Shown here: positions 5,538 to 62,045 of the stretch, in pieces
Layout: each line of letters starts with the position of its first letter
How positions within the stretch are numbered: the first letter of the stretch is position 1
Assembly (NCBI RefSeq): GCF_036365525.1
Contig: NC_090399.1
Coordinates: 52,236,430-52,300,429 of the forward strand
Reading direction: 5' to 3'
DNA length: 64,000 bases
Source of the DNA: Heterodontus francisci
Lineage: Eukaryota
Program-made: the position numbers and the translations under genes
Notes under the pieces: generated by a model
The model's input: only the letters and a program-made list of their open reading frames with translations
Database searches by the model: none
Told to the model about the DNA's origin: nothing

Positions 5538-6625
5538 CTTACAGTTTGGCTACAGGAGTTCAATGGTCAAGATAAGTCACTTAAACCTGAATAGATGCAT
5601 ACCATTGGGTGGACTGATTGCACCAGCTATCTCTTAAGTAGAATATTCATGAAGACATTCCATTGCCTCTGTGTTTCTGTATGAATAATTTTATTTCAGC
5701 TCCCAGATTGTTGTAAGAGCTCAGTTAAAAGTCTTGTTGGTTCCTGGGGTATGAAGCCTAGTCCGTTTGTGGCAATTGTCAATTTACAAACTGTCTTCAC
5801 AGTACAGCTGATGGATCCTTTAAATGCAGGCTTCCTTTAAGTTGAAAGCGTTCTTCCTGAAAGACTGTCGACACAGTGTGCCGATGCAATGCTAACACAG
5901 AGACTGCAGCATGGCTGGTGGAAGGCTGCTGACTTTAAATGGGCCTTGCAGGATGCCCTGGAGCAACTCTGGGCCTTGAGGACCCACCTTCAGACTGCAC
6001 CTGCAGTGCGTCAGCAATCCTAGTGACCTGCTGGAGGACAGATTGCTGGACTGCTGTGGGAGCCTGGGAGTCCCTTTGTGCACTGGTATTCACAGCCAGG
6101 ATGGAGCAGTGTGAGCCTGCAGGGCATCAAGCTGGACTTGCATGGAAACAAACATGGATCTCATGACCTTAGTCTGAGCTTTCACTGCAGCACTCACCTC
6201 TCACAGCTTGTATGTATTATCATCCATTCAAATGTGGCAGGCAATTCACCCAAACACATTGCAACACACATTCTGACACACTTCCCTCAACTTGCAGGAC
6301 AAGGCAGCCGACAATAGATGGCAGCAACAGAATGTCATTTAAAAACACCAAACAAATAAAGGGTAAGAGTTTATGATCTGAAATTGTTGAACACAGTGTT
6401 GAGTCCAAAAGGCTGTAAAGTGTCCAATTGAAAGACGAGGTGTTGTTCCTCGAGCTCACATTGAGCTTCAATGGAACCGTGTAGCAGACCAAGAACAGAG
6501 AGGCGAGTGTGGGAGTGGAGTGCAGAATTAAAATGACAGATAAATGAAGGGTTGGGGTCACTGGACTGCGAACAGGACTAAGTCTTCTGCAAAGCGATTA
6601 CCCAATTTGCATTTGGTCTCATGTC
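5538..6625 (+). repeat. Local duplication, copy 2 (about 1.1 kb)
   Basis: Matches 1316-2390; both copies run directly into the 35-bp satellite. Confidence 0.9.
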
Positions 6626-22464: not shown

Positions 22465-22516
22465 ATGTTACTGATTCTTTTCTCCATATCCCTGTGTTTT
22501 TCCTGGGTCTATCCCG
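22465..22516 (+). CDS. MHC class I-like exon 1, signal peptide MLLILFSISLCFSWVYP
   Basis: ATG at 22465, 17 hydrophobic codons, then G|GTAAGT consensus donor in phase 1. Matches the phase of the alpha1 acceptor (G+AC = Asp). Preceded by ISRE/X1/Y-like boxes. Linkage across 13.6 kb is inferred. Confidence 0.8.
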
Positions 22517-36148: not shown

Positions 36149-36409
36149 ACAGTAATGTCTTTACTGTAATATATCTGGCAACCTCTGGCACGACTGAATT
36201 ACCTGAGTATGTTGGTGTGGGAATGATCAATGAGGTTCCAGTAGCTTATTACGACAGTGATACCCACCACATAGTCTCCCGGCAGCAGTGGATGACAGAC
36301 TCGTTTGATGCAGAGTACTGGGAATATCTCACAAATCGAGGGAATAAACATTGTGCAATTGCAAAGGAGAATCTGAATATGATAATGAAGGGGAGAAACC
36401 AGACATCGG
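36149..36409 (+). CDS. MHC class I-like exon 2, alpha1 domain
   Basis: ttttacag acceptor and G|GTAAG donor. Translates DSNVFTVIYLATSGTTELPEYVGVGMINEVPVAYYDSDTHHIVSRQQWMTDSFDAEYWEYLTNRGNKHCAIAKENLNMIMKGRNQTS, including the conserved N86 sequon NQT. Confidence 0.95.
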
Positions 36410-36749
36410 GTAAGATCAGCACTGCAGAATCTCCCACCTTCCCTTTTCCCTCCTCTCTCACTGTCCAAGGCCCCAAACACTCCTTACTCTTTCAATACAG
36501 TATACTGCATTTGCTGCTCACAATGTGGTCTGTATGAATGGTTAATTATGATGTTAAAGGTAAACAGCTGAAGGGCATTGTTCAATTCAGGATTTGAAGT
36601 GAATATAAAGAGAGTCTGTTGGATACAAGGGTGGTGATTGAACAGATATGTAATGCTGCATTCTGTGAATAAATTCAATATCAGGAATAGGATCTGTGTA
36701 TAGTTTCATTTTTCACCTGTTGGCATGGATCCAGTTAACATAGCAGAGG

Positions 36750-38990
36750 ATGGCTGCCAAGAAGATTGGAAACTAAGGTTTTTTTTTCTCAAACAGAGGG
36801 TTGTAATCGGAGTTATTTTTGAGAAGAATGCCTGAAACCAAGTATAGAGTGTCAGGCTGTGACTTCCCACCGATGTTCTCAGAAGCTGAACCTTATGACC
36901 AATGGGAAAATAAAGTAGATATGTGGTCACGGGTTCTGTCCTTACCAAAGAGAAACGGCCACAAACCGCACGAACGATTCAGCTTCCTTCTCTAGTGAAG
37001 ATCTGTGTGTTTGATCCTTTTTCAGTAGTCATGACAGTGAGTCAGCAATGTTCATTGTTCCAGCAATATGAACCACCTTGTACTTGTATTGCTGCAGTCT
37101 CAAAACTTATCTCTCAATTCGGGCACATGGTTTGGATCTGAGAGAATAAATCATCTGTAATGGATTGTGATCCATCGCTAATTCAAACTCGATGCCGAAC
37201 AAGTATGCATGGAATAGTGCACGTGCCCACACCAATCCTAGGCCTCTTTCTCCATCTGAGAATATCTCCTCTCTAAATCAGTCAGAGATATACTCACATA
37301 AGCAACGATTCTCGGGCCCTCAGCCTGCATTTGCACCAGTACTGCTCCTAATCCTACTGGACTAGCATCTGCAATGACTTTTGTTGCATTTGGATCACAG
37401 TATCCCAGGGTTTGAGCATTTGTCAAGCTGCCTTTCAAAGCTCTGGATGCAGCTTTCTGTTCTTCATCAAATCTGAGTCACTCTTTCTGGTTAACTTCCT
37501 CAATGGATCAGCAAGCAAAGTTTGGGATATACCTCGCACAATAGCTCACAAATTCCAGAAAACTTCTCACTTCACTAGAGTTTTGTGGTCCACTTGCCTC
37601 TGCTATTGCTTCTATTTTGTCTTTGGCAGGATTGATTCCACTGCACTTGAGTTTATGGCCCAAAAACTTTAGCTCTGTCATGTCCAGCTGCATTTACTGT
37701 AAATCCTGCTGACTGCAATCCAGCCAATACTAATCTCAGCCTCTCGTCATGTTTCTCTCTATTGGCTGCATGAGCAATGATGTCCTTAGAGATATTAACT
37801 GTTTCTAGGATCCTTTGTGTCACCTAGTGGATTTCATGTTGGTAAATCTCTGGTGCCACACTGATGTCAAATACCAATCTCTTGTATCACTAAAGTCCAC
37901 AATGAGTGACAAAAGTTGTCACCTTCCTTGAATCAGGATGGAGCTCCAGCTGGTGGTATCTTCATTTTAAGTCTAATTTGGAGAGTACCTTGCTTGAAAG
38001 ATTTCATCCACAGCGAGAATTGGGTGACATTCTCCCATTGCCGCTTTATTCACCTGTCATATATAGACACAGAATCTGATGTCACCATTTGGTTTAGGCA
38101 CTACCACAACAGGACTCGTCCACGGGATTGGTCCTTCAACTGACTCTATGGTATCTTGGTCAATCAGTCCCTTGATCTTTGCCTCAACTTTCCCTCTCAG
38201 ACCAAAAGGTGTTCTGTGTACAGGCTGAACTACAGGCTTCACGTTCTCATCAATTGTTAATTTCACTTGGTGGTTGTGCAACTTCACAATTCCTTGAAAC
38301 TCTGGTTCAACCACCTCTGGAAGCTCTGCATAGGATTTCACAGAATTCACTTTCAATCCAGTGTGGAGCACCCCCAAGTCTTGGCCTGCTTCTCAGCTCA
38401 GAAGAGGCTCACTATCCCCCTCAATAACTACACATTCTTCCTCTGCACTCTGATCCCCAGCTCTCACTCACTGTGAAACATACAACAGTATGAAGTGGGG
38501 TTTTAGATTAGTAAGGATAAAGCTTTTTGACACATTTTCGAGATGTGCACTTGATTCTCTTTGTCTTCAGTTCTTCCCAAAGTGCTCTGCTGATGACATT
38601 ACTTCACTGCCTGAATCTACAATAATACTCACTTCAACACCTCCAACAATCACTGGAACTTTCTCATGGTTGCTTCCATTGACAGAAAACATGCATCCAT
38701 GATTGCTATTCATGTCCTCACTCACTGCATCATCTTCAACTCATCTCACAGTTGTAATATTTCCATCTCCTTCCTTTACATGGTTTGCCAGGCTTCCCAC
38801 TTTGTTCAGCTTGGCAAAATGGTCTTTTCCCCCACATTTTCTGCATATCTTTCCTTGGCAGGACAGCGATCATCTCTTCCATAGTGCCCCAAGTTGCCAC
38901 ATCTGAAACACTCCCAGACTTTTGCTGTTTATGTTTACATGTACCTGGATTCCATTGTGTCACTCAATTAACCTCAGATTTTGTCGTACC
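36750..38990 (-). mobile_element. Gypsy-type LTR retrotransposon pol remnant
   Basis: Protease-like IIVDSG, RT EGPIPWTSPVVVVPKPNGDIRFCV, LKFLGH..EVRSFL, RNase H ADASPVGLGAVL..RRYSQMEKEA. Confidence 0.85.
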
Positions 38991-39002
38991 AATGATGGAA
39001 AT

Positions 39003-42000
39003 GGGAGGTGGTGGTGTAGTGGTATTGTCACCGGACTAGTAGCTTAGAGACCCAAGGTATTGCTCTGACGACGTGGGGTCAAATCCAACCATGTCAAAAG
39101 GTAGAATTTAAATTCAATTAATAAAAATAATTGGAATTATAAAGTTAGTCTAATGATGGCCATTGTTGCTTTTTGTAAAAACCCATCTGGTTCACAAATG
39201 TCATTTAGAGAAGGAAATCTGCTCTCCTTACCTGGTCTGACCTACAAGTGACTCCAGACCCACAGCAATGTAGTTGACTCATAAATGCCCTCTGAAATTG
39301 CCTAGCAAGCCAATCAATTGTATTTGACTGCTACAAGATCAATAAGGAATGCAACTGGACAGAACACCCGACATCCACACCCGAAATGACAACAACAAAC
39401 CCAGCCCTATTGACCATCCAAAGTTCTCCTTACTAACATCTGGGTGCTTGTGCCAAAGTTGGGAGAGCTGTCCCACAGAAAAGTCAAGCAACAGCCTGAC
39501 ACAGTCATACTCACCAAATCATACTTTACAGGTAATGTCCCAGACACCACCATCACCATCCCTGGGTATGCCCTATCTCCCCAGCAGGACAGACCCCGCA
39601 AAGGTGGTGGCACAGTGGTCTGCAGTAGGGAGAGAGTTGCCCTAACAGTCCTCAACATAGACTCCAGGTCCATGAAGTCTGATGGCATCAGGTCGAACAT
39701 GGGCAAGAAAACTTTCTGCTGATTACCACCTACTGCCCTCCCTCAGCTGATAAATCAGTACTCCTCCATGTTGAACACCACTTGGAGGAAGCACTGAGGG
39801 TGGCAAGGGTGCAGGATGTACTCTGGGTGGGGGACTTCAATATCCATCACCAGGAGTGGCTCGAAAGTACCACTACTGACCGAGCTGGCCAAATCCTAAA
39901 GGACATAGGTGGTGAGGGAACCAACAAGAGGGAAAAATATACTTGACCTCATCCTCACCAATCTGCCTGCCGCAGATGCATCTGTCCATGACAGTATTGG
40001 TATGTGTGACCACCACACAGTCCTTGATGAAGACCCCCATCTTCACATTGAGGATAACGTCCATCGTGTGTGTGGTACTAACACCGTGCTAAATGGGATA
40101 GATTTTGAACTGATATAGCAGCTAAAAACTGGGCATCCATGAGGCACTGTGGGCCAACAGCAGCAGCAGCAGAATTGAACTCAACCACAATCTGTAAATT
40201 CATAGCTCGGCATATTCCCCACTCTACCATTACCATCAAACTGGGAGGTTAACCCTGTATCAGTGAAGAGTGCAGGAGGGCATGCCAGGAGCAGCACCAG
40301 GCATAGCTCAAAATGAGATGTCAACCTGGTGAAGCTACAACACAGGACTATCTGCGTGCCAAACTGTGTAAGCAGCATGCGATAGACAGAGCTAAGCGAT
40401 CCCATAACCAACGGATCAGATCTAAGCTCTGCAGGTGGACAATTAAACAACTAGCTGGAGCAGGTGGCTCCACAAATATCCCCATCCTCAATGATGGGGG
40501 AGCCCAGCACATCAGTGCGAAAGATAAGGCTGAAGCATTTGCAACAATCATAAGTCAGAAGTGCCGAGTTGATGATCAATTGCAGCCTCCTCCCGAAGTC
40601 CCCAGCATCATAGATGCCAGTCTTCAGCAATTCAATTCACTCCGTGTGATATCAAAAAATGACTGAAGGCACTGGATACAGAAAAAGCGATGGGCCTTTA
40701 CAATATTCCGGCAATAGCACTGAAGACCTGTGCTCCAGAACTTGCCGGGCCCCTAGCCAAGCTGTTGCAGTTCGGCTACAACACTGACATCTACCCAGCA
40801 ATGTGGAAAATTGCCCATGCATGTCCTGTACACAAAAAGCAGGACAAGTCAATTACCGCCCCATCACTCTGCTCTCAAACATCAGTAAAGTGATGGATGG
40901 TGTCTTCAGCAGTGCTATCAAGTAGCACGTACTTAGCAATAACCTGCTCACTGATGCTCAGTTTGGGTTCTGTCAGGGCCACTCAATTCCAGACCTCATT
41001 ACAGCCTTGGTTCAAACTTGACCAAAAAAGCTGAACTCAAGAGGTGAGGTGAGAGTGACTGCCCTTGACATCAAGGCAGCATTTGATCGAGTATGGCATC
41101 AAGGAGCCCTAGCAAAACTGGAGTCAATGGGAATCAGGGGAAAACTTTCTGCTGGTTGGAGTTGCACCTAGTGCAAAGGAAGAGGATTGTGGTTGTTGGA
41201 GGTCAATCACCTCAGCTCCCGGATATCACTGCAGGAGTTCCTCAGGGTAGTGTCCTAGGCCTAGCCATCTTCAGCTGCTTCATCAATGACCTTCCTTCAA
41301 TCATAAGGTCAGAAGTGGGGATGTTCGCTGATGATTGCACAATGTTGGTAGGTAAATTGCCCATTATAAATTGTCCCTAGTATAGGTAGGTGGTGGGGAA
41401 ATATAGGGACAGGTGGGGATGTGGTAGGAATATGGGATTAGTGTAGGATTAGTATAAATGGGTGGTTGATGGTCAGCACAGACTCGGTGGGCTGAAGGGC
41501 CTGTTTCAGTGCTGTATCTCTAAAACTAAAATTAAATTAAACTAACATTCATGACTCCTCAGATACTGAAGCAGTCCGTGTAGAAATGCAGCAAGACCTG
41601 GACAATATCCAGGCTTGGGCTGATAAGTGGCAAATAACATTGGTGCCACATAAGTGCCAGGCAATGACCATCTCCAACAAGAGAGAATCGAGCCATCTCC
41701 CCTTGACATTCAATGGCATGATCATCGCTGAATCCCCCACTATCAACATTCTGGGGATTACCATTGACCGGAATCTGAACTGGAGTAGCCATATACACAC
41801 TGTGGCTACAAGAGCAGGTCAGAGGCTAGGAATCCTGCGGCAAGTAACTCACCTCCTGATTCCCCAAAGCCAGTCCACCATTTACAAGGCACATATCAGG
41901 AGTGTGATGGAATACTCTCCACTTGCCTGGATGGCTGGATCTCCAACAACACTCAAGAAGCTCGACACCATCCAGAACAAAGCAACCCGCTTGATTGGCA

Positions 42001-42015
42001 CCCCATCGACAAACA
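39003..42015 (+). mobile_element. Near full-length MEYSPLAWM-family LINE with tRNA-like 5' head
   Basis: A/B-box-like head at 39012-39086, APE (KQQPDTVILTKSY, GDFN), RT (DIKAAFD, AGVPQGSVLG, MFADDCT), SVMEYSPLAWM; 3' end cut by a Penelope insertion. Confidence 0.85.
41345..41545 (+). mobile_element. 3' half of an HE1-like SINE inserted in the LINE RT
   Basis: Reverse complement similarity to 795-945. Confidence 0.8.
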
Positions 42016-42860
42016 CGGCACCTTCCCCTTCAATCGCAGGAAGTGTAATACCTGCCCATTTACCTCCTCTCTCCTCACTATCCCAGGCCCCAAACACTCC
42101 TTTCAGGTGAAGCAGCGATTTACTTGTACTTCTTTCAATGTAGTATACTGTATTCGCTGCTCACAATGTGGTCTCCTCTACATTGGGGAGACCAAACGCA
42201 GACTGGCTGACTGTTTTGCGGAACATCTCCGCTCAGTCCGCAAGCAGGACCCCGAGCTTCCGGTTGCTTGCCATTTCAACACTCCCCCCTGCCCTCATGC
42301 TCACCTCTCTGTCCTGGGAAAACTGCAGTGTTCCAGTGAACATCAACGCAAGCTCGAGGAACAGCATCTCATTTTCCGATTGGGCATACTACAGCCTGAT
42401 GGACTGAACATTGAGTTCAATAATTTCAGAGCATGACGGGCCCCCCATTTTAATTTTTTTTTAATTTATTTTTTCTGTTTCTTTTTTTGTGTTAGTTTTA
42501 TTTTATTTCATCTTAGTTTGTTCAGTTTGCTTACCCACTTTACCCACAGCTTGTGGCTGTTCAATTTTCACTCTGTTAAAACCCTATCGGTACTAATGCT
42601 TTGTCTTTCAACGCACCATTAACATATTGTTTGCATTTGCTCCATGACTATCTGGTCAGCTATTCTGTGGCCTTGTCCTATCTGCACCTTCTCCTTTGTT
42701 ATCTCTTGCCCTACCCCCACTTTATTTGCTTGTAACCTTTCACATTTCTAATATTTGCCAGTTTTGATGAAGGGACACTGACCCGAAACGTTAACTCTGC
42801 TTCTCTCTCCACAGATGCTGCCAGACCTGCTGAGTATTTCCAGCATTTCTTGTTTTCATT
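42016..42860 (+). mobile_element. Penelope-like element 3' part: GIY-YIG endonuclease plus terminal repeat
   Basis: ORF 42107-42436 NVVYCIRCSQCGLLYIGETKRRL..EH..PVACHF..E..LI..L..LQPDGLN. Confidence 0.9.
42760..42796 (+). ncRNA. Minimal type I hammerhead ribozyme-like motif (variant core)
   Basis: AGTT-TTGATGA-A-GGGAC-ACT-GACCC-GAAA-CGTT-AACT in the Penelope terminal region. Confidence 0.5.
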
Positions 42861-42884
42861 CCTGCTCCTTATTCTTGTGTTCTG

Positions 42885-43260
42885 TCAGGTGGTAGGAGTT
42901 TAAGAGACAAAAAGCAAATTGTCTTAAAGTTACATCAACAATTTGCTCATCCCTCTTGTCATAGATTAAAAATCTTATTAAAAGATGCGGGGTGGCTGAT
43001 GATGAGTACAGAAAGCTTATATTGCAGAGATTAATGAAAACATTGATATATGCAAAAAGTATCAGAGGACACCATCATGGTCTGTTGTAGGTTTCCCATT
43101 AGCAAGAGACTTTAATGAAGTAGCGGCTAGGGATTTAAAAGGAGTGGGGCAAGTATAAAAGCATTTTCGTTTTGCACTTCATAGACATGGCAGCAAGATT
43201 CCGTCTTTCTACAGTGATACATAGTAAAGATAAAAGAGTGATTGTGCAGAAAGTCATGGA
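42885..43260 (+). mobile_element. Copia-like LTR retrotransposon integrase fragment
   Basis: LKLHQQFAHP..LLKDAG..ICKKYQRTP..VVGFPLARDFNEV..DL..LHFIDMAARF; cut off by the 32-bp satellite. Confidence 0.65.
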
Positions 43261-44290
43261 GGCATCCATCGCGGTGATGCCGGGCCGGCGCTGGGATGCA
43301 TCGCGGTGATGCCGGGCTGGCAGTGGCATCCATCGCTGCGACGCCGGGCCGACACTGGGATCCATCGCGGTGATGCGGGCCGGCGCTGGGATCCATCGCG
43401 GTGGTGCAGGGTCGGCGGTGGGATCCATCGCGATGATGCCAGGCCGGCGGAGGCATCCATCGCGGTGGTGCAGGGCCGATGGAGGCATCCATCGCGGTGA
43501 TGCCGGGCCGACACTGGGATCCATCGCGGTGATGCGGGCCGGCGCTGGGATCCATCGCGGTGGTGCAGGGTCGGCGGTGGGATCCATCGCGGTGATGCCA
43601 GGCCGGCGGAGGCATCCATCGCGGTGGTGCAAGGCCGGCGGTGGGATCCATCGCGGTGATGGCGGGCCGGCGCTGGGATCCATCGCGGTGATGCCAGGTC
43701 GGCGGAGGCATCCATCGCTGTGACGCCGGGCCGACACTGGGATCCATCGCGGTGATGCGGGCCAGCGCTGGGATCCATCGCGGTGGTGCAGGGTCGGCGG
43801 TGGGATCCATCGCGGTGATGCCAGGCTGGCGGAGGCATCCATCGCAGTGGTGCAGGGCCGGCGGTGGGATCCATCGCGGTGATGCCGGGCTGGCAGGGGC
43901 ATCCATCGCTGTGACGCTGGGCCGACGCTGGGAACCATCGCGGTGATGCGGGCCGGCGCTGGGATCCATTGCGGTGGTGCAGGGCCGGTGGTGGGATCCA
44001 TCACGATGTTTCCAGGCCGGCGGTGGGATCCATCGCGGTGATGCCGGGCCGGCGGTGGCATACATCGCGGTGATGCCAGGCCGGCGGTGGCATCCATCGT
44101 GGTGATGCTGGGCCGGCGGTTGCATCCATCGCGGTGATGCCAGGCCGGCGGTGGGATCCATCGCGAAGGTTGCGGGCCGGCGGTGGGATCCATCGCGGTG
44201 ATGCCGGGCCGGCGGTGGCATCCATCGTGGTGATGCCAGGCCGGCGGTGGCATCCATCGTGGTGATGCTGGGCCGGCGGTGGCATCCATC
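43261..44290. repeat. 32-bp satellite, GC-rich variant domain
   Basis: Unit GGATCCATCGCGGTGATGCCGGGCCGGCGGTG. Confidence 0.93.
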
Positions 44291-47200
44291 GCTGTGAGGC
44301 CGAGCCCGCGGTGAGATCTATTACTGTGATACCGAGCCCGCGGTGGGATCTATTGCTGTGATACAGAGCCCGCGGTGGGATCTATTAGTGTGCTACCGAG
44401 CCCGCGGTGGGATCTATTGCTGTGATACACAGCCCGCAGTGGGATCTATTAGTGTGATACCGAGCCTGCGGTGGGATCTATTAGTGTGACACCGAGCCCG
44501 CGGTGGGATCTATTGCTGTGATACAGAGCCCGCGGTGAGATCTATTGCTGTGATACCAGGCCCGCGGTGGGATCTATTGCTGTGATACAAAGCCCGCTGT
44601 GGGATCTATTGCTGTGATACAGAGCCCGAGGTGGGATCTATTACAGTGATAGTGAGCCCGCGGTAGGATCTATTAGTGTGATAATGAGCCCGCGGTGGGA
44701 TCTATTAATGTGATACCGTGCCCGCGGTGAGATCTATTGCTGTGATACCGGGCCCGCGGTGGGATCTATTACAGTGATACTGGGCCCGCGGTGGGATCTA
44801 TTACTGTGATACTGAGCCCGCGGTTGGATCTATTAGTGTGATACTGAGCCCGCGGTGGGATCCATTACTGTGATACTGAGCCCGCGGTGGGATCTATTAC
44901 TGTGATACCGAGCCCGCGGTGGGATCTATTACGGTGATACCGGGCCCGCGGTGGGATCTATTACGGTGATACCGGGCCCGCGGTGGGATCTATTACTGTG
45001 ATACTGAGCCCGCGGTTGCATCTATTAGTGTGATACTGAGCCCGCGGTGGGATCTATTACTGTGATACCGACCCCGCGGTGGGTCTATTACTGTGATACT
45101 GAGCCCGCGGTTGGATCTATTACTGTGATACAGAGCCCGCGGTGGTATCTATTGCTGTGATACAGAGCCCGTGGTGTTATCTTTTGCTGTGATACCGAGC
45201 CCGCACTGGTATCTATTAGTGTGATACTGAGCCCGTGGTGGTATCTATTGCTGTGATACAGAGCCCGTGGTGTTATCTTTTGCTGTGATACCGAGCCCGC
45301 ACTGGTATCTATTGCTGTGATACCGAGCCCGCACTGGTATCTATTGCCTGTGATACCGAGCCCGCACTGGTATCTATTGCTGTGATACCGAGCCCGCACT
45401 GGTATCTATTACTGTGATACTGAGCCCGCAGTGGGATCTTTTGCTGTGATACCGAGCCCGTGGTGGTATCTGTTGCTGTGATGCTGAGCCCGCGGTGGGA
45501 TCTATTACTGTGATACTGAGCCCGCGGTGGGAACTATTACTGTGATACTGAGCCCGCACTGGTATCTGTTGCTGTGATACTGAGCCCGCGGTGGGATTTA
45601 TTACTGTGATACTGAGCCCGCACTGGTATCTATTGCTGTGATACTGAGCCCGCACTGGTATCTGTTGCTGTGATACTGAGCCCGCGGTGGGATCTATTGC
45701 TGTGATACTGAGCCAGCGGTGGGATCTATTACTGTGAGACTGAGCCCGCGGTGGGATCTATTGCTGTGATACTGAGCCCGCAGTGGGATTTATTACTGTG
45801 ATACTGAGCCCGCACTGGTATCTATTACTGTGATACTGAGCCCGCAGTGGGATTTATTACTGTGAAACTGAGCCCGCACTGGTATCTGTTGCTGTGATAC
45901 TGAGCCCGCAGTGGGATCTATTGCTGTGATACTGAGCCAGCGGTGGGATCTATTACTGTGAGACTGAGCCCGCGGTGGGATCTATTGCTGTGATACTGAG
46001 CCCGCAGTGGGATTTATTACTGTGATACTGAGCCCGCACTGGTATCTATTACTGTGATACTGAGCCCGCGGTGGGATCTATTGCTGTGATACTGAGCCCG
46101 CGGTGGAATCCAATATTGTGATACTGAGCCCGCACTGGTATCTATTAGTGTGATACTGAGCCTGCAATGGGATCTATTGCTGTGATACCGAGCCCGCACT
46201 GGTATCTATTGCTGTGATACTGAGCCCGCACTGGTATCTATTGCTGTGATACTGAGCCCGCACTGGTATCTATTGCTGTGATACTGAGCCCGCGGTGGGA
46301 TCTATTGCTGTGATACTGAGCCCGCGGTGGAATCCAATATTGTGATACTGAGCCCGCACTGGTATCTATTAGTGTGATACTGAGCCTGCAATGGGATCTA
46401 TTGCTGTGATACCGAGCCCGCACTGGTATCTATTGCTGTGATACTGAGCCCGCGGTGGAATCTATTGCTGTGATACAGAGCCCTGGTGGTATCTATTGCT
46501 GTGAAACAGAGCCCGTGGTGTTATCTTTTGCTGTGATACCGAGCCCGCACTGGTATCTATTGCCTGTGATACCGAGCCCGCACTGGTATCTATTGCTGTG
46601 ATACCGAGCCCGCACTGGTATCTATTACTGTGATACTGAGCCCGCAGTGGGATCTTTTGCTGTGATACCGAGCCCGCGGTGGGATCTATTACTGTGATAC
46701 TGAGCCCGCAGTGGGATCTATTGCTTTGATACTGAGCCCGCGGTGGTATCTATTGCTGTGATACTGAGCCCGCACTGGTATCTATTACTGTGATACTGAG
46801 CCCGCAGTGGGATCTATTGCTGTGATACTGAGCCTGCAGTGGGATCTATTGCTGTGATACTGAGCCCGCAGTGGGATCTATTGCTGTGATACTGAGCCCG
46901 CACTGGTATCTATTACTGTGATACTGAGCCCGCAATGGTATCTATTGCTGTGATACCGAGCCCGCAGTGGGATCTATTGCTGTGATACTGAGCCCGCACT
47001 GTTATCTATTACTGTGATACTGAGCCCGCACTGGTATCTATTACTGTGATACTGAGCCCGCAGTGGGATCTATTACTGTGATACTGAGCCCGCAATGGGA
47101 TATATTGCTGTGATACCGAGCCCGCAGTGGGATCTATTGCTGTGATACTGAGCCCGCAATGGGATCTATTGCTGTGATACTGAGCCCGCGGTGGGATCTA

Positions 47201-50200
47201 TTGCTGTGATACTGAGCCCGCACTGTTATCTATTACTGTGATACTGAGCCCGCACTGTTATCTATTACTGTGATACTGAGCCCGCAGTGGGATCTATTAC
47301 TGTGATACTGAGCCCGCAATGGGATCTATTGCTGTGATACCGAGCCTGCAGTGGGATCTATTTCTGTGATACTGAGCCCGCAATGGGATCTATTACTGTG
47401 ATACTGAGCCCGCACTGGTATCTATTGCTGTGATACTGAGCCCGCGGTGGGATCTATTACTGTGATACTGAGCCCGCGGTGGGATCTATTGCCGTGATAC
47501 CGAGCCCGCGGTGGGATCTATTGCTGTGATACCGAGCCTGCAGTGGGATCTATTACTGTGATACTGAGCCCGCAATGGGATATATTGCTGTGATACCGAG
47601 CCCGCAGTGGGATCTATTGCTGTGATACTGAGCCCGCAATGGGATCTATTGCTGTGATACCGAGCCTGCAGTGGGATCTATTTCTGTGATACTGAGCCCG
47701 CAATGGGATCTATTACTGTGATACTGAGCCCGCACTGGTATCTATTGCTGTGATACTGAGCCCGCGGTGGGATCTATTACTGTGATACTGAGCCCGCGGT
47801 GGGATCTATTGCCGTGATACCGAGCCCGCGGTGGGATCTATTGCTGTGATACTGAGCCTGTGGTGGGATCTATTGCTGTGATACCGAGCCCGCGGTGGGA
47901 TCTATTGCTGTGATACTGAGCCCACACTGGTATCTATTACTGTGATACTGAGCCCGCACTGGTATCTATTACTGTGATACTGAGCCCGCAGTGGGATCTA
48001 TTGCTGTGATACTGAGCCCGTGGTGGGATCTATTGCTGTGATACTGAGCCCGCACTGGTATCTAATACTGTGATACTGAGCCCGCGGTGGGATCTATTGC
48101 TGTGATACTGAGCCCGCGGTGGGATCTATTGATGTGATACCGTGCCCGCGGTGGTATCTATTGCTGTGATACTGAGCCCGCGGTGGGATCTATTGATGTG
48201 ATACTGAGCCCGTGTTGGATCTATTGCTGTGATACTGATCCCGTGGTGGTATCTATTGCTGTGATACCGAGCCCGTGGTGGAATCTATACTGTGATACTG
48301 AGCCCGCGGTGGGATCTATTGCTGTGATACCGAGCCCGTGGTGGAATCTATTACTGTGATACCGAGCCCGCGGTGGAATCTATTACTGTGATACTGAGCC
48401 CGTGGTGGAATCTATTACTGTGATACCGAGCCCGCGGTGGGATCTATTGCTGTGATACCGAGCCCGCGGTGGGATCTATTACTGTGATACGGAGCCCGTG
48501 GTGGAATCTATTACTGTGATACCGAGCCCGCGGTGGGATCTATTACTGTGATACTGAGCCCGCGGTGGAATCTATTACTGTGATACTGAGCCCGTGGTGG
48601 AATCTATTACTGTGATACCGAGCCCGCGGTGGGATCTATTGCTGTGATACTGAGCCCGCGGTGGGATGTATTGCTGTGATGCTGAGCCCGCGGTGGGATC
48701 TATTACTGTGATACCGAGCCTGCGGTGGGATCTATTGCTGTGATACTGAGCCCGCGGTGGGATTTATTACTGTGATACTGAGCCCGCACTGGTATCTATT
48801 GCTGTGATACTGAGCCCGCACTGGTATCTGTTGCTGTGATACTGAGCCCGCGGTGGGATCTATTGCTGTGATACTGAGCCCGCAGTGGGATCTATTGCTC
48901 TGATACCGAGCCCGTGGTGGAATCTATTACTGTGATACTGAGCCCGCGGTGGGATCTATTGCTGTGATACTGAGCCCGCACTGGTATCTATTGCTGTGAT
49001 ACTGAGCCCGCGGTGGGATCTATTACTGTGATACTGAGCCCGCACTGGTATCTAATACTGTGATACTGAGCCCGCGGTGGGATCTATTGCTGTGATACTG
49101 AGCCCGCGGTGGGATCTATTGATGTGATACCGTGCCCGCGGTGGTATCTATTGCTGTGATACTGAGCCCGCGGTGGGATCTATTGATGTGATACTGAGCC
49201 CGTGTTGGATCTATTGCTGTGATACTGATCCCGTGGTGGTATCTATTGCTGTGATACCGAGCCCGTGGTGGAATCTATACTGTGATACTGAGCCCGCGGT
49301 GGGATCTATTGCTGTGATACCGAGCCCGTGGTGGAATCTATTACTGTGATACCGAGCCCGCGGTGGAATCTATTACTGTGATACTGAGCCCGTGGTGGAA
49401 TCTATTACTGTGATACCGAGCCCGCGGTGGGATCTATTGCTGTGATACCGAGCCCGCGGTGGGATCTATTACTGTGATACGGAGCCCGTGGTGGAATCTA
49501 TTACTGTGATACCGAGCCCGCGGTGGGATTTATTACTGTGATACTGAGCCCGCACTGGTATCTATTTCTGTGATACTGAGCCCGCACTGGTATCTATTAC
49601 TGTGATACTGAGCCCGCACTGGTATCTATTGCTGTGATACCGAGCCCGCAGTGGGATCTATTGCTGTGATACTGAGCCCGCGGTGGAATCCAATATTGTG
49701 ATACCGAGCCCGCAGTGGGATCTATTACTGTGATACTGAGCCTGCAATGGGATCTATTGCTGTGATACCGAGCCCGCACTGGTATCTATTGCTGTGATAC
49801 TGAGCCCGCGGTGGAATCTATTGCTGTGATACAGAGCCCGTGGTGGTATCTATTGCTGTGATACAGAGCCCGTGGTGTTATCCTTTGCTGTGATACCGAG
49901 CCCGCACTGGTATCTATTGCCTGTGATACCGAGCCCGCACTGGTATCTATTGCTGTGATACCGAGCCCGCACTGGTATCTATTACTGTGATACTGAGCCC
50001 GCAGTGGGATCTATTGCTTTGATACTGAGCCCGCGGTGGTATCTATTGCTGTGATACTGAGCCCGCACTGGTATCTATTACTGTGATACTGAGCCCGCAA
50101 TGGGATCTATTGCTGTGATACCGAGCCCGCAGTGGGATCTATTGCTGTGATACTGAGCCCGCACTGTTATCTATTACTGTGATACTGAGCCCGCACTGGT

Positions 50201-53200
50201 ATCTATTACTGTGATACTGAGCCCGCAGTGGGATCTATTACTGTGATACTGAGCCCGCAATGGGATCTATTGCTGTGATACCGAGCCCGTGGTGGGATCT
50301 ATTACTGTGATACTCTGCCCGCGGTGGGATCTATTGCTGTGATACCGAGCCCGTGGTGGGATCTATTACTGTGATACCGAGCCCGTGGTGGGATCTATTG
50401 CTGTGATACTGGGCCCGCGGTGGGATCTATTACTGTGATACTGAGCCCGCGGTGGAATCCAATATTGTGATACTGAGCCCGCACTGGTATCTATTAGTGT
50501 GATACTGAGCCTGCAATGGGATCTATTGCTGTGATACCGAGCCCGCACTGGTATCTATTGCTGTGATACTGAGCCCGCGGTGGAATCTATTGCTGTGATA
50601 CAGAGCCCTGGTGGTATCTATTGCTGTGAAACAGAGCCCGTGGTGTTATCTTTTGCTGTGATACCGAGCCCGCACTGGTATCTATTGCCTGTGATACCGA
50701 GCCCGCACTGGTATCTATTGCTGTGATACCGAGCCCGCACTGGTATCTATTACTGTGATACTGAGCCCGCAGTGGGATCTTTTGCTGTGATACCGAGCCC
50801 GCGGTGGGATCTATTACTGTGATACTGAGCCCGCAGTGGGATCTATTGCTTTGATACTGAGCCCGCGGTGGTATCTATTGCTGTGATACTGAGCCCGCAC
50901 TGGTATCTATTACTGTGATACTGAGCCCGCAGTGGGATCTATTGCTGTGATACTGAGCCTGCAGTGGGATCTATTGCTGTGATACTGAGCCCGCAGTGGG
51001 ATCTATTGCTGTGATACTGAGCCCGCACTGGTATCTATTACTGTGATACTGAGCCCGCAATGGTATCTATTGCTGTGATACCGAGCCCGCAGTGGGATCT
51101 ATTGCTGTGATACTGAGCCCGCACTGTTATCTATTACTGTGATACTGAGCCCGCACTGGTATCTATTACTGTGATACTGAGCCCGCAGTGGGATCTATTA
51201 CTGTGATACTGAGCCCGCAATGGGATATATTGCTGTGATACCGAGCCCGCAGTGGGATCTATTGCTGTGATACTGAGCCCGCAATGGGATCTATTGCTGT
51301 GATACTGAGCCCGCGGTGGGATCTATTGCTGTGATACTGAGCCCGCACTGTTATCTATTACTGTGATACTGAGCCCGCACTGTTATCTATTACTGTGATA
51401 CTGAGCCCGCAGTGGGATCTATTACTGTGATACTGAGCCCGCAATGGGATCTATTGCTGTGATACCGAGCCTGCAGTGGGATCTATTTCTGTGATACTGA
51501 GCCCGCAATGGGATCTATTACTGTGATACTGAGCCCGCACTGGTATCTATTGCTGTGATACTGAGCCCGCGGTGGGATCTATTACTGTGATACTGAGCCC
51601 GCGGTGGGATCTATTGCCGTGATACCGAGCCCGCGGTGGGATCTATTGCTGTGATACCGAGCCTGCAGTGGGATCTATTACTGTGATACTGAGCCCGCAA
51701 TGGGATATATTGCTGTGATACCGAGCCCGCAGTGGGATCTATTGCTGTGATACTGAGCCCGCAATGGGATCTATTGCTGTGATACCGAGCCTGCAGTGGG
51801 ATCTATTTCTGTGATACTGAGCCCGCAATGGGATCTATTACTGTGATACTGAGCCCGCACTGGTATCTATTGCTGTGATACTGAGCCCGCGGTGGGATCT
51901 ATTACTGTGATACTGAGCCCGCGGTGGGATCTATTGCCGTGATACCGAGCCCGCGGTGGGATCTATTGCTGTGATACTGAGCCTGTGGTGGGATCTATTG
52001 CTGTGATACCGAGCCCGCGGTGGGATCTATTGCTGTGATACTGAGCCCACACTGGTATCTATTACTGTGATACTGAGCCCGCACTGGTATCTATTACTGT
52101 GATACTGAGCCCGCAGTGGGATCTATTGCTGTGATACTGAGCCCGTGGTGGGATCTATTGCTGTGATACTGAGCCCGCACTGGTATCTAATACTGTGATA
52201 CTGAGCCCGCGGTGGGATCTATTGCTGTGATACTGAGCCCGCGGTGGGATCTATTGATGTGATACCGTGCCCGCGGTGGTATCTATTGCTGTGATACTGA
52301 GCCCGCGGTGGGATCTATTGATGTGATACTGAGCCCGTGTTGGATCTATTGCTGTGATACTGATCCCGTGGTGGTATCTATTGCTGTGATACCGAGCCCG
52401 TGGTGGAATCTATACTGTGATACTGAGCCCGCGGTGGGATCTATTGCTTTGATACCGAGCCCGTGGTGGAATCTATTACTGTGATACCGAGCCCGCGGTG
52501 GAATCTATTACTGTGATACTGAGCCCGTGGTGGAATCTATTACTGTGATACCGAGCCCGCGGTGGGATCTATTGCTGTGATACCGAGCCCGCGGTGGGAT
52601 CTATTACTGTGATACGGAGCCCGTGGTGGAATCTATTACTGTGATACCGAGCCCGCGGTGGGATCTATTACTGTGATACTGAGCCCGCGGTGGAATCTAT
52701 TACTGTGATACTGAGCCCGTGGTGGAATCTATTACTGTGATACCGAGCCCGCGGTGGGATCTATTGCTGTGATACTGAGCCCGCGGTGGGATGTATTGCT
52801 GTGATGCTGAGCCCGCGGTGGGATCTATTACTGTGATACCGAGCCTGCGGTGGGATCTATTGCTGTGATACTGAGCCCGCGGTGGGATTTATTACTGTGA
52901 TACTGAGCCCGCACTGGTATCTATTGCTGTGATACTGAGCCCGCACTGGTATCTGTTGCTGTGATACTGAGCCCGCGGTGGGATCTATTGCTGTGATACT
53001 GAGCCCGCAGTGGGATCTATTGCTCTGATACCGAGCCCGTGGTGGAATCTATTACTGTGATACTGAGCCCGCGGTGGGATCTATTGCTGTGATACTGAGC
53101 CCGCACTGGTATCTATTGCTGTGATACTGAGCCCGCGGTGGGATCTATTACTGTGATACTGAGCCCGCACTGGTATCTAATACTGTGATACTGAGCCCGC

Positions 53201-55578
53201 GGTGGGATCTATTGCTGTGATACTGAGCCCGCGGTGGGATCTATTGATGTGATACCGTGCCCGCGGTGGTATCTATTGCTGTGATACTGAGCCCGCGGTG
53301 GGATCTATTGATGTGATACTGAGCCCGTGTTGGATCTATTGCTGTGATACTGATCCCGTGGTGGTATCTATTGCTGTGATACCGAGCCCGTGGTGGAATC
53401 TATACTGTGATACTGAGCCCGCGGTGGGATCTATTGCTGTGATACCGAGCCCGTGGTGGAATCTATTACTGTGATACCGAGCCCGCGGTGGAATCTATTA
53501 CTGTGATACTGAGCCCGTGGTGGAATCTATTACTGTGATACCGAGCCCGCGGTGGGATCTATTGCTGTGATACCGAGCCCGCGGTGGGATCTATTACTGT
53601 GATACGGAGCCCGTGGTGGAATCTATTACTGTGATACCGAGCCCGCGGTGGGATTTATTACTGTGATACTGAGCCCGCACTGGTATCTATTTCTGTGATC
53701 CTGAGCCCGCACTGGTATCTATTACTGTGATACTGAGCCCGCACTGGTATCTATTGCTGTGATACCGAGCCCGCAGTGGGATCTATTGCTGTGATACTGA
53801 GCCCGCGGTGGAATCCAATATTGTGATACCGAGCCCGCAGTGGGATCTATTACTGTGATACTGAGCCTGCAATGGGATCTATTGCTGTGATACCGAGCCC
53901 GCACTGGTATCTATTGCTGTGATACTGAGCCCGCGGTGGAATCTATTGCTGTGATACAGAGCCCGTGGTGGTATCTATTGCTGTGATACAGAGCCCGTGG
54001 TGTTATCCTTTGCTGTGATACCGAGCCCGCACTGGTATCTATTGCCTGTGATACCGAGCCCGCACTGGTATCTATTGCTGTGATACCGAGCCCGCACTGG
54101 TATCTATTACTGTGATACTGAGCCCGCAGTGGGATCTATTGCTTTGATACTGAGCCCGCGGTGGTATCTATTGCTGTGATACTGAGCCCGCACTGGTATC
54201 TATTACTGTGATACTGAGCCCGCAATGGGATCTATTGCTGTGATACCGAGCCCGCAGTGGGATCTATTGCTGTGATACTGAGCCCGCACTGTTATCTATT
54301 ACTGTGATACTGAGCCCGCACTGGTATCTATTACTGTGATACTGAGCCCGCAGTGGGATCTATTACTGTGATACTGAGCCCGCAATGGGATCTATTGCTG
54401 TGATACCGAGCCCGTGGTGGGATCTATTACTGTGATACTCTGCCCGCGGTGGGATCTATTGCTGTGATACCGAGCCCGTGGTGGGATCTATTACTGTGAT
54501 ACCGAGCCCGTGGTGGGATCTATTGCTGTGATACTGGGCCCGCGGTGGGATCTATTACTGTGATACTGAGCCCGCGGTGGGATCTATTGCTGTGATACTG
54601 AGCCCGCGGTGGGATCTATTGCTGTGATACTGAGCCCGCACTGGTATCTATTGCTGTGATACCGAGCCCGTGGTGGGATCTGTTACTGTGATACCGAGCC
54701 CGTGGTGGAATCTATTGCTGTGATACTGAGCCCGCGGTGGGATCTATTGCTGTGATCCTGAGCCCGCGGTGGGATCTATTACTGTGATACTGAGCCCGCA
54801 CTGGTATCTATTGCTGTGATACTGAGCCCGCAGTGGGATCTATTGCTGTGATACTGAGCCCGCGGTGGGATCTATTACTGTGATACTGAGCCCGCACTGG
54901 TATCTATTGCTGTGATACTGAGCCCGCGGTGGGACTTATTACTGTGATACTGAGCCCGCAGTGGGATCTATTGCTGTGATACTGAGCCCGCGGTGGGATC
55001 TATTGCTGTGATACTGAGCCCGCACTGGTATCTATTGCTGTGATACCGAGCCCGTGGTGGAATCTATTACTGTGATACTGAGCCCGCGGTGGGATCTATT
55101 GCTGTGATACCGAGCCCGCGGTGGTATCTATTGCTGTGATACTGAGCCCGCGGTGGGATCTATTACTGTGATACTGAGCCCGCACTGGTATCTGTTGCTG
55201 TGATACTGAGCCCGCTGTGGGATTTATTACTGTGATACTGAGCCCGCGGTGGGATCTATTCCTGAGATACTGAGCCCGCACTGGTATCTATTGCTGTGAT
55301 ACTGAGCCCGTGGTGGGATCTATTGCTGTGATACTGAGCCCGCGGTGGGATCTATTGCTGTGATACTGAGCCCGCAGTGGGATCTATTGCTGTGATACTG
55401 AGCCCGCACTGGTATCTATTGCTGTGATATCGAGCCCGTGGTGGAATCTATTACTGTGATACTGAGCCCGCGGTGGGATCTATTGCTGTGATACTGAGCC
55501 TGCGGTGGGATCTATTGCTGTGATACCGAGCCCGCGGTGGTATCTATTGCTGTGATACTGAGCCCACACTGGGATCTA
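44291..55578. repeat. 32-bp satellite main array (about 11.3 kb) with 990-bp and 4125-bp higher-order duplications
   Basis: Unit GGATCTATTGCTGTGATACTGAGCCCGCGGTG; variant monomers recur at offsets of 990 and 4125 bp. Confidence 0.97.
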
Positions 55579-55641
55579 CTCACGTAATAAAGGGACTTTT
55601 TCCATTAACAATCAATTTTTGAATTTCTGTTGACTTGACAG

Positions 55642-55917
55642 GAATTCACACTTTCCAATGGATAAGAACTGTTGAGATCACTGACAACGGCTCCATTAAG
55701 AGATCGATGCGTTTTGGATATGATGGAAAGGATTATATTAGTTTAGAACCTGACAGAATGAAATGGGTTGCAACCAATCAGAATGCAGTGAAGACCAAGG
55801 AGAAATGGGATTCTGATGAATCCTGGAACAATTATTGGAAATGGAATTTGGAAGTAGAACTTGTTGAACGTTTAAAACTACGTTTACACTTTGGAAAGGA
55901 ATATCTCCAAAGGAAAG
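55642..55917 (+). CDS. MHC class I-like exon 3, alpha2 domain (no cysteines)
   Basis: ttgacag acceptor, G|GTATT donor, 276 nt. Translates GIHTFQWIRTVEITDNGSIKRSMRFGYDGKDYISLEPDRMKWVATNQNAVKTKEKWDSDESWNNYWKWNLEVELVERLKLRLHFGKEYLQRK. Confidence 0.95.
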
Positions 55918-56034
55918 GTATTTATTTCAGTTTTTACCCCATGTTCTGATCTAACATCACTAATCTATGAATCCATTATCCTGTTCCATTCAGTGTTTGT
56001 GTATTGTTTGTGTTTTTATCCTTTCCCATTACAG

Positions 56035-56313
56035 TTCAGCCTGAAGTGTTCATCTCCAGAAGTGACCCCAATAGTCAGTACAAGCCTCTCACTCTCTCCT
56101 GCCTGGTTACTGGATTTTATCCTGTAGTCATTGAGGTGAACTGGCTAAGGAATGGAGAGGTAATGTCTGAGAGTCAATCCTCGGGGGTGCGACCGAACCA
56201 CGATGGGACCCATCAGATCCAGAAAGAGATTGAAATAAATGCTGGGGAAGAGGATCAATACTCCTGTCGAATTGATCACAGCAGCCTGGCAGAGGCCAAG
56301 CTCTCTCAGTGGG
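56035..56313 (+). CDS. MHC class I-like exon 4, alpha3 (Ig C1-set) domain
   Basis: Polypyrimidine tract plus ttacag acceptor, G|GTAAG donor. Translates VQPEVFISRSDPNSQYKPLTLSCLVTGFYPVVIEVNWLRNGEVMSESQSSGVRPNHDGTHQIQKEIEINAGEEDQYSCRIDHSSLAEAKLSQW, with both Ig cysteines and the core Trp. Confidence 0.97.
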
Positions 56314-60264: not shown

Positions 60265-62045
60265 AAAGGGGGTTTGATAGAGGGGTTCTCTAATGGGTAA
60301 TAATCCAGGGGGGTTTGACAGAGGGGTTCTGTAATGAGATATAATCCAGGGCGGTTTGACAGAGGGGTTCTGTAATGGGTAATAATCCAGGGAGGTTTGA
60401 TAGAGGGGTTCTCTAATGGGTAATAATCCAGGGGGGTTTCATAGAGGGGTTCTCTAATGGGTAATAATCCAGGGGGGTTTCATAGAGGGGTTCTCTAATG
60501 GGTAATAATCCAGGGGGGTTTCATAGAGGGGTTCTCTAATGGGTAATAATCCAGGGGGGTTTGATAGAGGGGTTCTCTAATGGGTAATAATCCAGGGGGG
60601 TTTCATAGAGGGGTTCTCTAATGGGTAATAATTCAGGGAGGTTTGATAGAAGGGTTCTCTAATGGGTAATAATTCAGGGAGGTTTGATAGAAGGGTTCTC
60701 TAATGGGTAATAATTCAGGGGGTTTGAAAGAGGGGTTCTCTAATGGGTAATATTCCAGGGGGGTTTGATAGAGGGGTTCTCTAATGGTTAATAATCCGGG
60801 GGTTTGATAGAGGGGTTCTCTAATGGGTAATAATTCAGGGAGGTTTAATAGAAGGGTTCTCTAATGGGTAATAATTCAGGGAGTCTAAAAGAGGGGTTCT
60901 CTAATGGGTAATAATCCAGGGCGTTTGATAGAGGGGTTCTCTAATGGGTAATAATCAAGGGGGGTTTGATAGAGGGGTTCTCTAATGGGCAATATTCCAG
61001 GGGGGTTTGATAGAGGGGTTCTCTAATGGTTAATAATCAAGGGGGTTTGATAGAGGGGTTCTCTAATGGGTAATATTCCAGGGGGGGGGGGGGTTGACAG
61101 AGGGGTTCTCTAATGGGTAATAATCTAGGGGGTTTGATAGAGGGGTTCTCTAATGGGTAATAATCCAGGGGGGTTTGATAGAGGGGTTCTCTAATGGATA
61201 ATATTCCAGGGGGGTTTGACAGAGGGGTTCTCTAATGGGTAATATTCCGGGGGGTTTGATAGAGGGGTTCTCTAATGGGTAATAATCCAGGGGGGTTTGA
61301 TAGAGGGGTTCTCTAATGGATAATATTCCAGGGGGGTTTGACAGAGGGGTTCTCTAATGGGTAATAATCTAGGGGGTTTGATAGAGGGGTTCTCTAATGG
61401 GTAATAATCCAGGGGGGTTTGATAGAGGGGTTCTCTAATGGATAATATTCCAGGGGGGTTTGACAGAGGGGTTCTCTAATGGGTAATATTCCAGGGGGTT
61501 TGATAGAGGGGTTCTCTAATGGGTAATAATCCAGGGGGGTTTGATAGAGGGGTTCTCTAATGGATAATATTCCAGGGGGGTTTGACAGAGGGGTTCTCTA
61601 ATGGGTAATATTCCGGGGGGTTTGATAGAGGGGTTCTCTAATGGGTAATAATCCAGGGGGGTTTGATAGAGGGGTTCTCTAATGGATAATATTCCAGGGG
61701 GGTTTGACAGAGGGGTTCTCTAATGGGTAATATTCCGGGGGGTTTGATAGAGGGGTTCTCTAATGGGTAATAATCCAGGGGGGTTTGATAGAGGGGTTCT
61801 CTAATGGATAATATTCCAAGGGGGATTGACAGAGGGGTTCTCTAATGGGTAATGTTCCGGGGTGGGGGGTTGATAGAGGGGTTCTCTAATGGGTAATAAT
61901 CCAGGGGGGTTTGATAGAGGGGTTCTCTAATGGGTAATATTCCAGGGGGGTTTGACAGAGGGGTTCTCTAATGGGTAATAATCCAGGGGGTTTGATAGAG
62001 GGGTTTTCTAATGCTTAATAATCCAGGGGGGTTTGATAGAGGTTG
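60265..62045. repeat. 41-bp G-run satellite
   Basis: Unit GATAGAGGGGTTCTCTAATGGGTAATAATCCAGGGGGGTTT; about 122-bp trimeric higher-order unit from about 61190. Confidence 0.95.

What the first reader, a model, noticed from the sequence alone, without database searches (positions are those of the whole stretch)
36149..55917. One-sided groove: peptide N-terminal anchors lost, C-terminal anchors kept
Seen (manual HLA-A2 numbering): Y7 to V, Y159 to N, W167 to R, Y171 to R, with Y59 retained. At the other end T143, K146, W147 (TKEKW) and Y123 are retained, while Y/R84 is G. The alpha2 helix is aromatic-rich (WNNYWKW), and R99/R167/R171 add positive charge toward the A-pocket end. Beta2m-contact residues Q96, D119, G120 and D122 are kept. 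Known: Y7/Y59/Y159/Y171 bind the peptide amino group and 84/143/146/147 bind the carboxylate. Inference: a beta2m-associated molecule that may bind N-modified or N-extended peptides, or an anionic non-peptide ligand.
Basis: partly seen in the sequence, partly recalled or inferred. Interest (0 to 1): 0.75.

Follow-up and report, generated by a model that had tools for sequence, protein, structure and literature searches.

The report
Conserved shark immune gene, arginine-lined groove
This is an intact, spliced horn shark non-classical MHC class I gene, likely of the published shark UEA family, whose ligand groove is almost unchanged across 11 shark species and has arginines where the peptide-start anchors normally sit, so it likely displays one fixed, negatively charged ligand rather than ordinary peptides.

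Summary
The residue list is correct: V7, Y59, G84, R99, Y123, T143/K146/W147, N159, R167, R171. The gene is intact, spliced across a 19.2-kb intron, and equals a horn shark RefSeq model.

It belongs to a multicopy family found only in sharks in our searches, lying beside UDA-like, UFA-like, UGA and beta2m genes. That fits published UEA (defining paper not held). This scan earlier filed a paralogue as UEA.

The window gene is a one-per-species orthologue in 11 sharks: 33 of 38 groove positions are invariant versus 84 of 141 elsewhere (p=0.001). Four of the five variable ones (80, 81, 84, 123) lie at the supposedly kept C-terminal end; T143/K146/W147 is a family-wide motif. So 'one-sided peptide groove' is only partly supported. 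The fixed, unusual part is the arginine-aromatic N-terminal end.

Best reading (0.45): a beta2m-bound molecule showing a fixed anionic non-peptide ligand, MR1-like in logic but not an MR1. Rivals: HLA-F-like open-ended peptides (0.25), closed groove (0.2). No ligand or cavity was tested. New member of a known kind.

The parts
22465..22516 (+). Leader (signal peptide) exon, coding part
   Evidence: tblastn of P0004; transcript-type contigs join it to alpha1 (loose end before 36148)
36149..36409 (+). Alpha1 exon: V7, Y9, Y59, Y62, R66, H70, unpaired C71, G84, N86 glycan motif
   Evidence: contigs of X1-X3 cover it with 0 differences
36410..55641 (+). Intron of 19.2 kb between the two groove exons
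   Evidence: GT..AG; one 365-base contig of run X3 lies on both exons
44302..55565 (.). Tandem array inside that intron, 32-base unit, about 352 copies
   Evidence: TRF
55642..55917 (+). Alpha2 exon: Q96, W97, R99, V101, R115, D119, G120, D122, Y123, T143, K146, W147, W152, Y155, W156, N159, L164, R167, R171; no cysteine
56035..56313 (+). Alpha3 exon (Ig C1 domain, both cysteines). The transmembrane and last cytoplasmic exons lie just past the window end (L044:178-303 and 5471-5800)
   Evidence: alpha2-alpha3 joint skipping 117 bases and loose end into the transmembrane exon

Best explanation
It is an intact, spliced, non-classical shark MHC class I heavy chain, likely of the UEA lineage and predicted to pair with beta2-microglobulin, whose near-invariant groove likely holds one fixed anionic non-peptide ligand (a small metabolite or a lipid head group) in an arginine-and-aromatic pocket at the end where peptides normally start. 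Shown: gene structure, splicing, residue changes, orthologue conservation. Predicted: class I fold and beta2m interface. Inferred: R66/R99/R167/R171 with Y9/Y22/Y59/Y62/H70 would repel or displace a free peptide amino group and bind an acid or phosphate; F95/W97/F116/W133/W147/W152/Y155/W156 would narrow the rest of the cleft; the loaded molecule would be read by a conserved receptor.
For: Groove positions invariant in 11 species of 4 orders: 33 of 38, versus 84 of 141 other alpha1-alpha2 positions (Fisher p=0.001) and 56 of 93 in alpha3 (p=0.002); A/B end 18 of 19, C-F end 15 of 19; alpha1 helix 58-78 varies at 2 of 21 positions. The nine orthologues put in the tree form one group (SH-aLRT 95) with very short branches; with the sister genes and a Heptranchias gene the group has 99 and all carry R167/R171. 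Net +3 at the A end and 9 aromatics among 18 F-side positions, against 3-6 in classical-like, UDA-like and 49.68-Mb genes. R171 in 0 of 137 other class I domains. Precedents: MR1 keeps about 90% of groove residues between human and mouse and binds metabolites in an aromatic cradle with Arg9/Arg94, which bind the phosphate of PLP (PMC12058573, passages); YF1 (PMC2998441, passages). Beta2m: 0.89 vs best control 0.14, contacts agree at least 92%, partner pLDDT at least 92; the mark was reached by 51 of 78 solved microbial and 2 of 108 mismatched pairs, and by 71 of 105 eukaryotic solved and 2 of 126 unrelated pairs.
Against: No ligand, cavity or electrostatic map was obtained; the tools return no coordinates. 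Invariance fits any fixed function, including a closed groove or one fixed peptide. The A/B versus C-F difference (18/19 vs 15/19) is small and was not tested for significance. T143, K146 and W147 are invariant in all 11. Invariant E163 and E166 could neutralise the arginines. The Lys that MR1 uses for Schiff bases is absent (I45; equivalence recalled). Species are related, so positions are not independent and the p-values are optimistic; the groove list is from recalled HLA-A2 structure. The predicted platform overlays classical class I best (rmsd 2.0 over 170 residues to 1TMC; 3.0 to EPCR). The beta2m pass may reflect solved shark complexes (6LUP, 8GM8, 9CH4). Basic grooves can bind acidic peptides (chicken BF2*04, recalled).
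Confidence: 0.45

Rival explanations
1. HLA-F-like peptide binder: peptides are held by their C-terminus at T143/K146/W147 and leave the groove at a blocked A end, or carry a blocked or acidic N-terminus that the arginines hold.
For: T143/K146/W147 invariant in 11 of 11; Y62 with R167/R171 could wall off the A pocket as W62 does in HLA-F (PMC7725694, PMC6525141, passages); platform most like classical class I.
Against: Position 84 is not Tyr/Arg and 80, 81, 84, 123 are four of the five variable groove sites; the same F-side motif sits in fast-changing paralogues; W152 and W156 (79 and 80 of 80) with W97 and F116 would crowd the cleft (inferred); YF1 keeps basic residues there without peptide.
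Confidence: 0.25
2. Closed or self-filled groove: the arginines pair with E163/E166 and the tryptophans fill the cleft, and the molecule acts as a ligand for a conserved receptor, as HFE or MIC do.
For: E163 and E166 invariant; 14 of 22 helix-top positions invariant in nine orthologues; loss of the alpha2 disulfide would let the helix shift inward (inferred); HFE is among the tied top fold matches (Z 22.5, rmsd 5.2, 259 aligned).
Against: Small residues at 7 (V), 24 (G), 34 (A), 67 (G), 74 (A) would open space under the arginines (inferred); helix-top invariance (14/22) is near background (59/102); the fold Z values are tied and distorted by alpha3 placement.
Confidence: 0.2
3. CD1-like binder of long hydrophobic lipids, as reported for shark UFA/UGA and in line with the hydrophobic groove recalled for UEA as a whole.
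For: Family lies in the same cluster as UFA-like and UGA genes; UGA 9CH4 is a tied top fold match (Z 22.8, rmsd 4.9, 258 aligned, 34% identity); PMC12562908 reports lipid binding by UFA/UGA as personal communication.
Against: The A end of this gene is polar and basic, not aliphatic; identity to UFA 23% and UGA 34%; both have separate candidate orthologues in this genome.
Confidence: 0.1

Closest known systems
Shark non-classical class I lineage UEA (Almeida et al. 2021, PMC8454915; not held, abstract recalled; described in PMC10751288 and PMC12562908)
   Same: Multicopy, hits only in sharks, MHC-linked, four copies directly beside the UDA-like gene and near beta2m, peptide-end anchors not conserved, several sublineages.
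   Different: No labelled UEA sequence could be compared. This copy is one-per-species with a fixed groove that is basic at the A end rather than simply hydrophobic; in horn shark it lies past beta2m between two class II A/B pairs, 2 Mb from the main cluster.
MR1 (mammals)
   Same: Near-invariant groove across species; arginines plus aromatic residues at the A-side pocket.
   Different: About 29-30% identity; no Lys at the Schiff-base position; no alpha2 disulfide; arginines at different positions; member of an expanded family. Works-like only.
HLA-F
   Same: Aromatic residue at 62; C-terminal-side motif present.
   Different: Here Y7, Y159, Y171, W167, position 84 and the disulfide are all replaced; peptide binding untested.
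Chicken YF1*7.1
   Same: Classical-looking platform with basic residues kept at the F end yet non-peptide ligand.
   Different: YF1 is polymorphic with a hydrophobic A pocket; this gene is conserved with a basic A end.
Shark UFA (8GM8) and UGA (9CH4)
   Same: Same MHC-Ib region, low copy, solved with shark beta2m.
   Different: 23% and 34% identity; other horn shark genes match them better.

Membership tests
MHC class I heavy chain | Leader, alpha1, alpha2, alpha3, transmembrane exons in phase 1 and class I fold | tested here: met
MHC class I heavy chain | Beta2m contact residues and pairing | tested here: met
   Q96, D119, G120, D122 kept; prediction 0.89 vs control 0.14, may be by likeness to solved complexes
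Classical class Ia (UAA) | Y7, Y59, Y/R84, Y123, T143, K146, W147, Y159, Y171 conserved | tested here: not met
   5 of 9 kept
Classical class Ia (UAA) | C101-C164 disulfide | tested here: not met
   V101, L164
UEA | Multicopy family | tested here: met
   6 alpha2 and alpha3 copies on C29 plus one alpha1 on C130; many per species
UEA | In the MHC-Ib cluster with UDA, bounded by beta2m/brd2 and hsd17b8/rxrb (PMC10751288 section 9) | tested here: met
   Family copies at 50.10-50.31 Mb, UDA-like gene 50.07, beta2m 50.73; white shark member LOC121291255 is in that cluster. The window gene itself is at 52.27 Mb, beyond beta2m. brd2 and hsd17b8 not located here.
UEA | Present in sharks, absent from rays and chimaeras (recalled) | tested here: inconclusive
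   70 of 71 hits and 72 of 72 are named sharks, one unnamed; these searches are word-limited and do not prove absence
UEA | Invariant peptide-end residues not conserved (recalled) | tested here: met
   Of 80 non-identical family sequences (isoforms included): Y7 0, Y59 34, R84 17, Y159 15, Y171 53
UEA | Three sublineages (recalled) | tested here: inconclusive
   Two well-supported low-copy groups (99 each) plus an expanded, unresolved remainder on 87 columns
UEA | Clusters with labelled UEA sequences and sister to dogfish UCA | not testable with these tools
   Paper not held; 'UEA' absent from the supplement of PMC10751288; no labelled UCA sequence found
UDA | Single copy with nearly all peptide anchors kept (recalled) | tested here: not met
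   A separate gene at 50.07 Mb has that pattern, 25-26% identical to this one
UFA / UGA | Orthology to 8GM8 or 9CH4 | tested here: not met
   23% and 34% identity; L007 matches 9CH4 at E 1e-31 and L019 matches 8GM8 best at E 7e-14
UBA | UAA-derived multicopy cluster away from the UDA cluster | tested here: not met
   Genes at 32-42 Mb keep both cysteines and group with classical-like genes, apart from this family; their UBA label comes from earlier scan notes
MR1 | Lys43 Schiff-base residue | tested here: not met
   I45 in all orthologues shown; position equivalence recalled
MR1 | Metabolite presentation to invariant T cells | not testable with these tools
   needs experiment

The most novel reading that the evidence does not exclude
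Sharks independently evolved an MR1-like sensor inside the UEA family: a single-copy, disulfide-free class I molecule, fixed across four shark orders, that presents one anionic microbial or self metabolite in an R99/R167/R171 pocket to an invariant shark T-cell or innate receptor.
Probability: 0.2. Interest if true: 0.8.

Novelty: new member of a known kind. Interest (0 to 1): 0.42.

Why it matters
No ligand for any UEA molecule turned up in the papers I could search, and lineage functions are described as unknown (PMC10751288 section 9). Most family members change fast, so they are poor targets. This one is fixed across four shark orders, which makes it the obvious member to express and elute. 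A metabolite ligand would show that MR1-type surveillance arose separately in the oldest jawed vertebrates with adaptive immunity. It is also a natural case of a class I platform kept without the C101-C164 disulfide.

Tried and rejected
Misalignment: rejected. Pseudogene or mis-joined exons: rejected; open frames, RefSeq model, one contig on both groove exons. The runs' RNA status is a guess by the tool and X1-X3 are one sample; no listed holder is on record as RNA. Horn-shark-specific oddity: rejected; only N159 and G84 are local, the other orthologues have Q159 and N/S84. UAA, UBA, UDA, UFA, UGA: rejected as above. Whole-model fold searches could not tell an open from a narrow groove, because alpha3 was poorly placed without beta2m (rmsd about 5-6 to class I chains). 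Cavity and electrostatics could not be computed (no coordinates). Papers not held: Almeida 2021 and 2020 and PMC5523829. Searches for a description of this sublineage found none, but the defining paper and its supplements were not visible and may describe it. Alpha2 tree is blurred by likely sequence exchange between paralogues, so alpha1 was used. Sequence look-up in earlier findings returned nothing. Nine partial or isoform rows were dropped by name before the tree, and identical or gapped rows by filter.
Full report
Observation. The coordinates span the alpha1 exon (36149-36409), a 19.2-kb intron and the alpha2 exon (55642-55917) of one class I gene; alpha3 follows at 56035-56313. The leader exon is at 22465 and the transmembrane and cytoplasmic exons lie just past the window. 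The alpha2 translation is 100% identical to a Heterodontus francisci RefSeq model (P0004, XP_067865875.1), whose alpha1-alpha3 equals my spliced translation. Contigs of three runs from one sample cover alpha1 without a difference and continue into the leader and alpha2; one 365-base contig lies on both groove exons, and the alpha2-alpha3 joint is seen. The tool only guesses that these runs are RNA. The register is secure: gap-free to 7CPO in alpha2, and classical-like genes of the same genome show the canonical tyrosines and cysteines in the same columns.

How unusual. Among 137 complete class I alpha1-alpha2 domains from the 147 library proteins analysed (P0112-P0258 of the 150 listed), 4 combine at most one N-terminal tyrosine with an intact 143/146/147 motif, none has R171 and none lacks a cysteine. 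The one-sided pattern is uncommon but not unique; the lost disulfide and R171 are the rarer marks.

Family. Two searches gave 71 and 72 proteins, all named ones from sharks. In this genome there are six alpha2/alpha3 copies. The order on contig C29 is: UGA orthologue 49.58 Mb, an unassigned gene 49.68, UFA-like 50.05, UDA-like 50.07, four family copies 50.10-50.31, beta2m 50.73, class II-type A/B exons 51.99/52.09, the window gene 52.27, its sister 53.42, class II-type A/B exons 53.99/54.04 (class II label from sequence likeness, recalled). PMC10751288 (section 9 read, passages, supplement searched and part 4 read) places single-copy UDA and multicopy UEA in the cluster beside beta2m, and a white shark member of this family (LOC121291255) is listed there. 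PMC12562908 (passages) names UBA and UEA as the two expanded shark families. UAA, UBA, UDA, UFA and UGA are each accounted for by other genes. UEA is therefore likely (about 0.85), by position, copy number and exclusion. I could not compare a labelled UEA sequence; what I say of Almeida 2021 is recalled from its abstract.

What is family-wide. Among 80 non-identical family alpha1-alpha2 sequences, isoforms included: Y7 0, C101 0, C164 6, W147 80, K146 75, T143 65, W152 79, W156 80, Y171 53, R171 21, R167 24, Y159 15. So loss of Y7 and of the disulfide and the aromatic alpha2 helix are family traits, whereas R167 with R171 marks mainly one branch.

What is special here. On an alpha1 tree of 89 rows and 87 columns, nine orthologues form a group (SH-aLRT 95) with very short branches; with seven sister genes, including one from Heptranchias, support is 99 (quick method, few columns). 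Across the 11 species, 33 of 38 groove positions are invariant, against 84 of 141 other alpha1-alpha2 positions and 56 of 93 in alpha3 (p=0.001 and 0.002; species are related, so these are optimistic). A second low-copy group of seven shows 19 of 38. The five variable groove sites are 80, 81, 84, 123 and 159. Four are at the C-terminal end. V7, Y9, Y59, Y62, R66, H70, R99, E163, R167 and R171 never change. A contig from a related organism (run X4) differs at five listed bases in alpha1, three synonymous and two in one non-groove codon.

Structure. AlphaFold2 on a 66-row family alignment gives the class I platform at pLDDT near 90, alpha3 lower. The platform overlays HLA alpha1-alpha2 at 2.0 over 170 residues; full-length matches are tied among UGA, HFE, H-2Kd and ZAG and do not tell the groove shape. 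With horn shark beta2m the complex scores 0.89 in three runs, best control 0.14, contacts agreeing at least 92%, partner pLDDT at least 92, with Q96 and D122 touching beta2m residue 58. Shark complexes of this kind are solved, so the pass shows likeness rather than binding.

Mechanism. A fixed groove points to a fixed function. The fixed and unusual end is basic and aromatic (net +3), which would not suit a free peptide amino group and resembles in logic the MR1 A' pocket (PMC12058573, passages). The kept F-end motif does not prove peptide binding: YF1 has Arg82 and Arg142 there, bound to acetate, with non-peptide ligands (PMC2998441, passages). I commit to a fixed anionic non-peptide ligand at 0.45. 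HLA-F-like C-anchored peptides (PMC7725694, PMC6525141, passages) stay at 0.25, since T143/K146/W147 are invariant too. A closed groove stays at 0.2, since E163/E166 could neutralise the arginines. A CD1-like lipid groove gets 0.1. None of these was tested directly.

Verdict. Real, intact and well conserved; likely a member of a published lineage whose loss of peptide anchors is already reported (recalled). The added value is that this orthologue is the fixed member, with an arginine pocket, and so a good target for ligand elution. Whether Almeida 2021 or its supplements already describe this branch I could not see. Novelty: new member of a known kind. Interest 0.42.

Noticed in passing
G000:C29:49682145-49690294 (L033, L009): A single class Ib gene between UGA and the UFA-like gene. 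Its alpha2 scores best against MR1 (E 3e-14, versus 3e-11 for UGA); its alpha1 shares a helix motif with UGA. Possibly a UGA paralogue or an unnamed lineage.
   Followed up: partly
G000:C29:51.99-54.04 Mb: The window gene and its sister lie between two class II-type A/B exon pairs, on the far side of beta2m from the Ib cluster; the white shark table lists no Ib gene between class II and B2M.
   Followed up: partly
window 36352-36354: Unpaired C71 on the alpha1 helix, invariant in 11 of 11 orthologues of a platform that has lost its usual disulfide; role unexplained.
   Followed up: no
L021 (G000:C29:53438497) versus window 55642-56313: The sister gene is 95% identical in alpha2 and alpha3 but 75% in alpha1, and alpha3 is 93-98% identical among the six horn shark copies, suggesting exon-level sequence exchange. 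The sister has Y159 and H59.
   Followed up: partly
P0135 (Mustelus UDA-like), P0143: UDA-like proteins carry almost the same leader peptide as this family, which suggests a shared or exchanged first exon across Ib lineages.
   Followed up: no
window 55710-55712: Q115 is R in 70 of 80 family sequences; 115 is a beta2m- and CD8-side position in HLA (recalled) and lies in the predicted beta2m interface.
   Followed up: partly
window 43264-55565, 6619-14644, 20266-21741, 60268-62042: Large tandem arrays (32, 35, 39, 41-base units) in and around the gene.
   Followed up: no
L044:5471-5800; P0003: An unusually long acidic cytoplasmic tail (about 110 residues) and an annotated isoform without the transmembrane exon, which would be soluble.
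   Followed up: no
G000:C29:54595286-54595528 (L040): A class I-like alpha3 exon with an unusual end and no alpha1/alpha2 match nearby.
   Followed up: no
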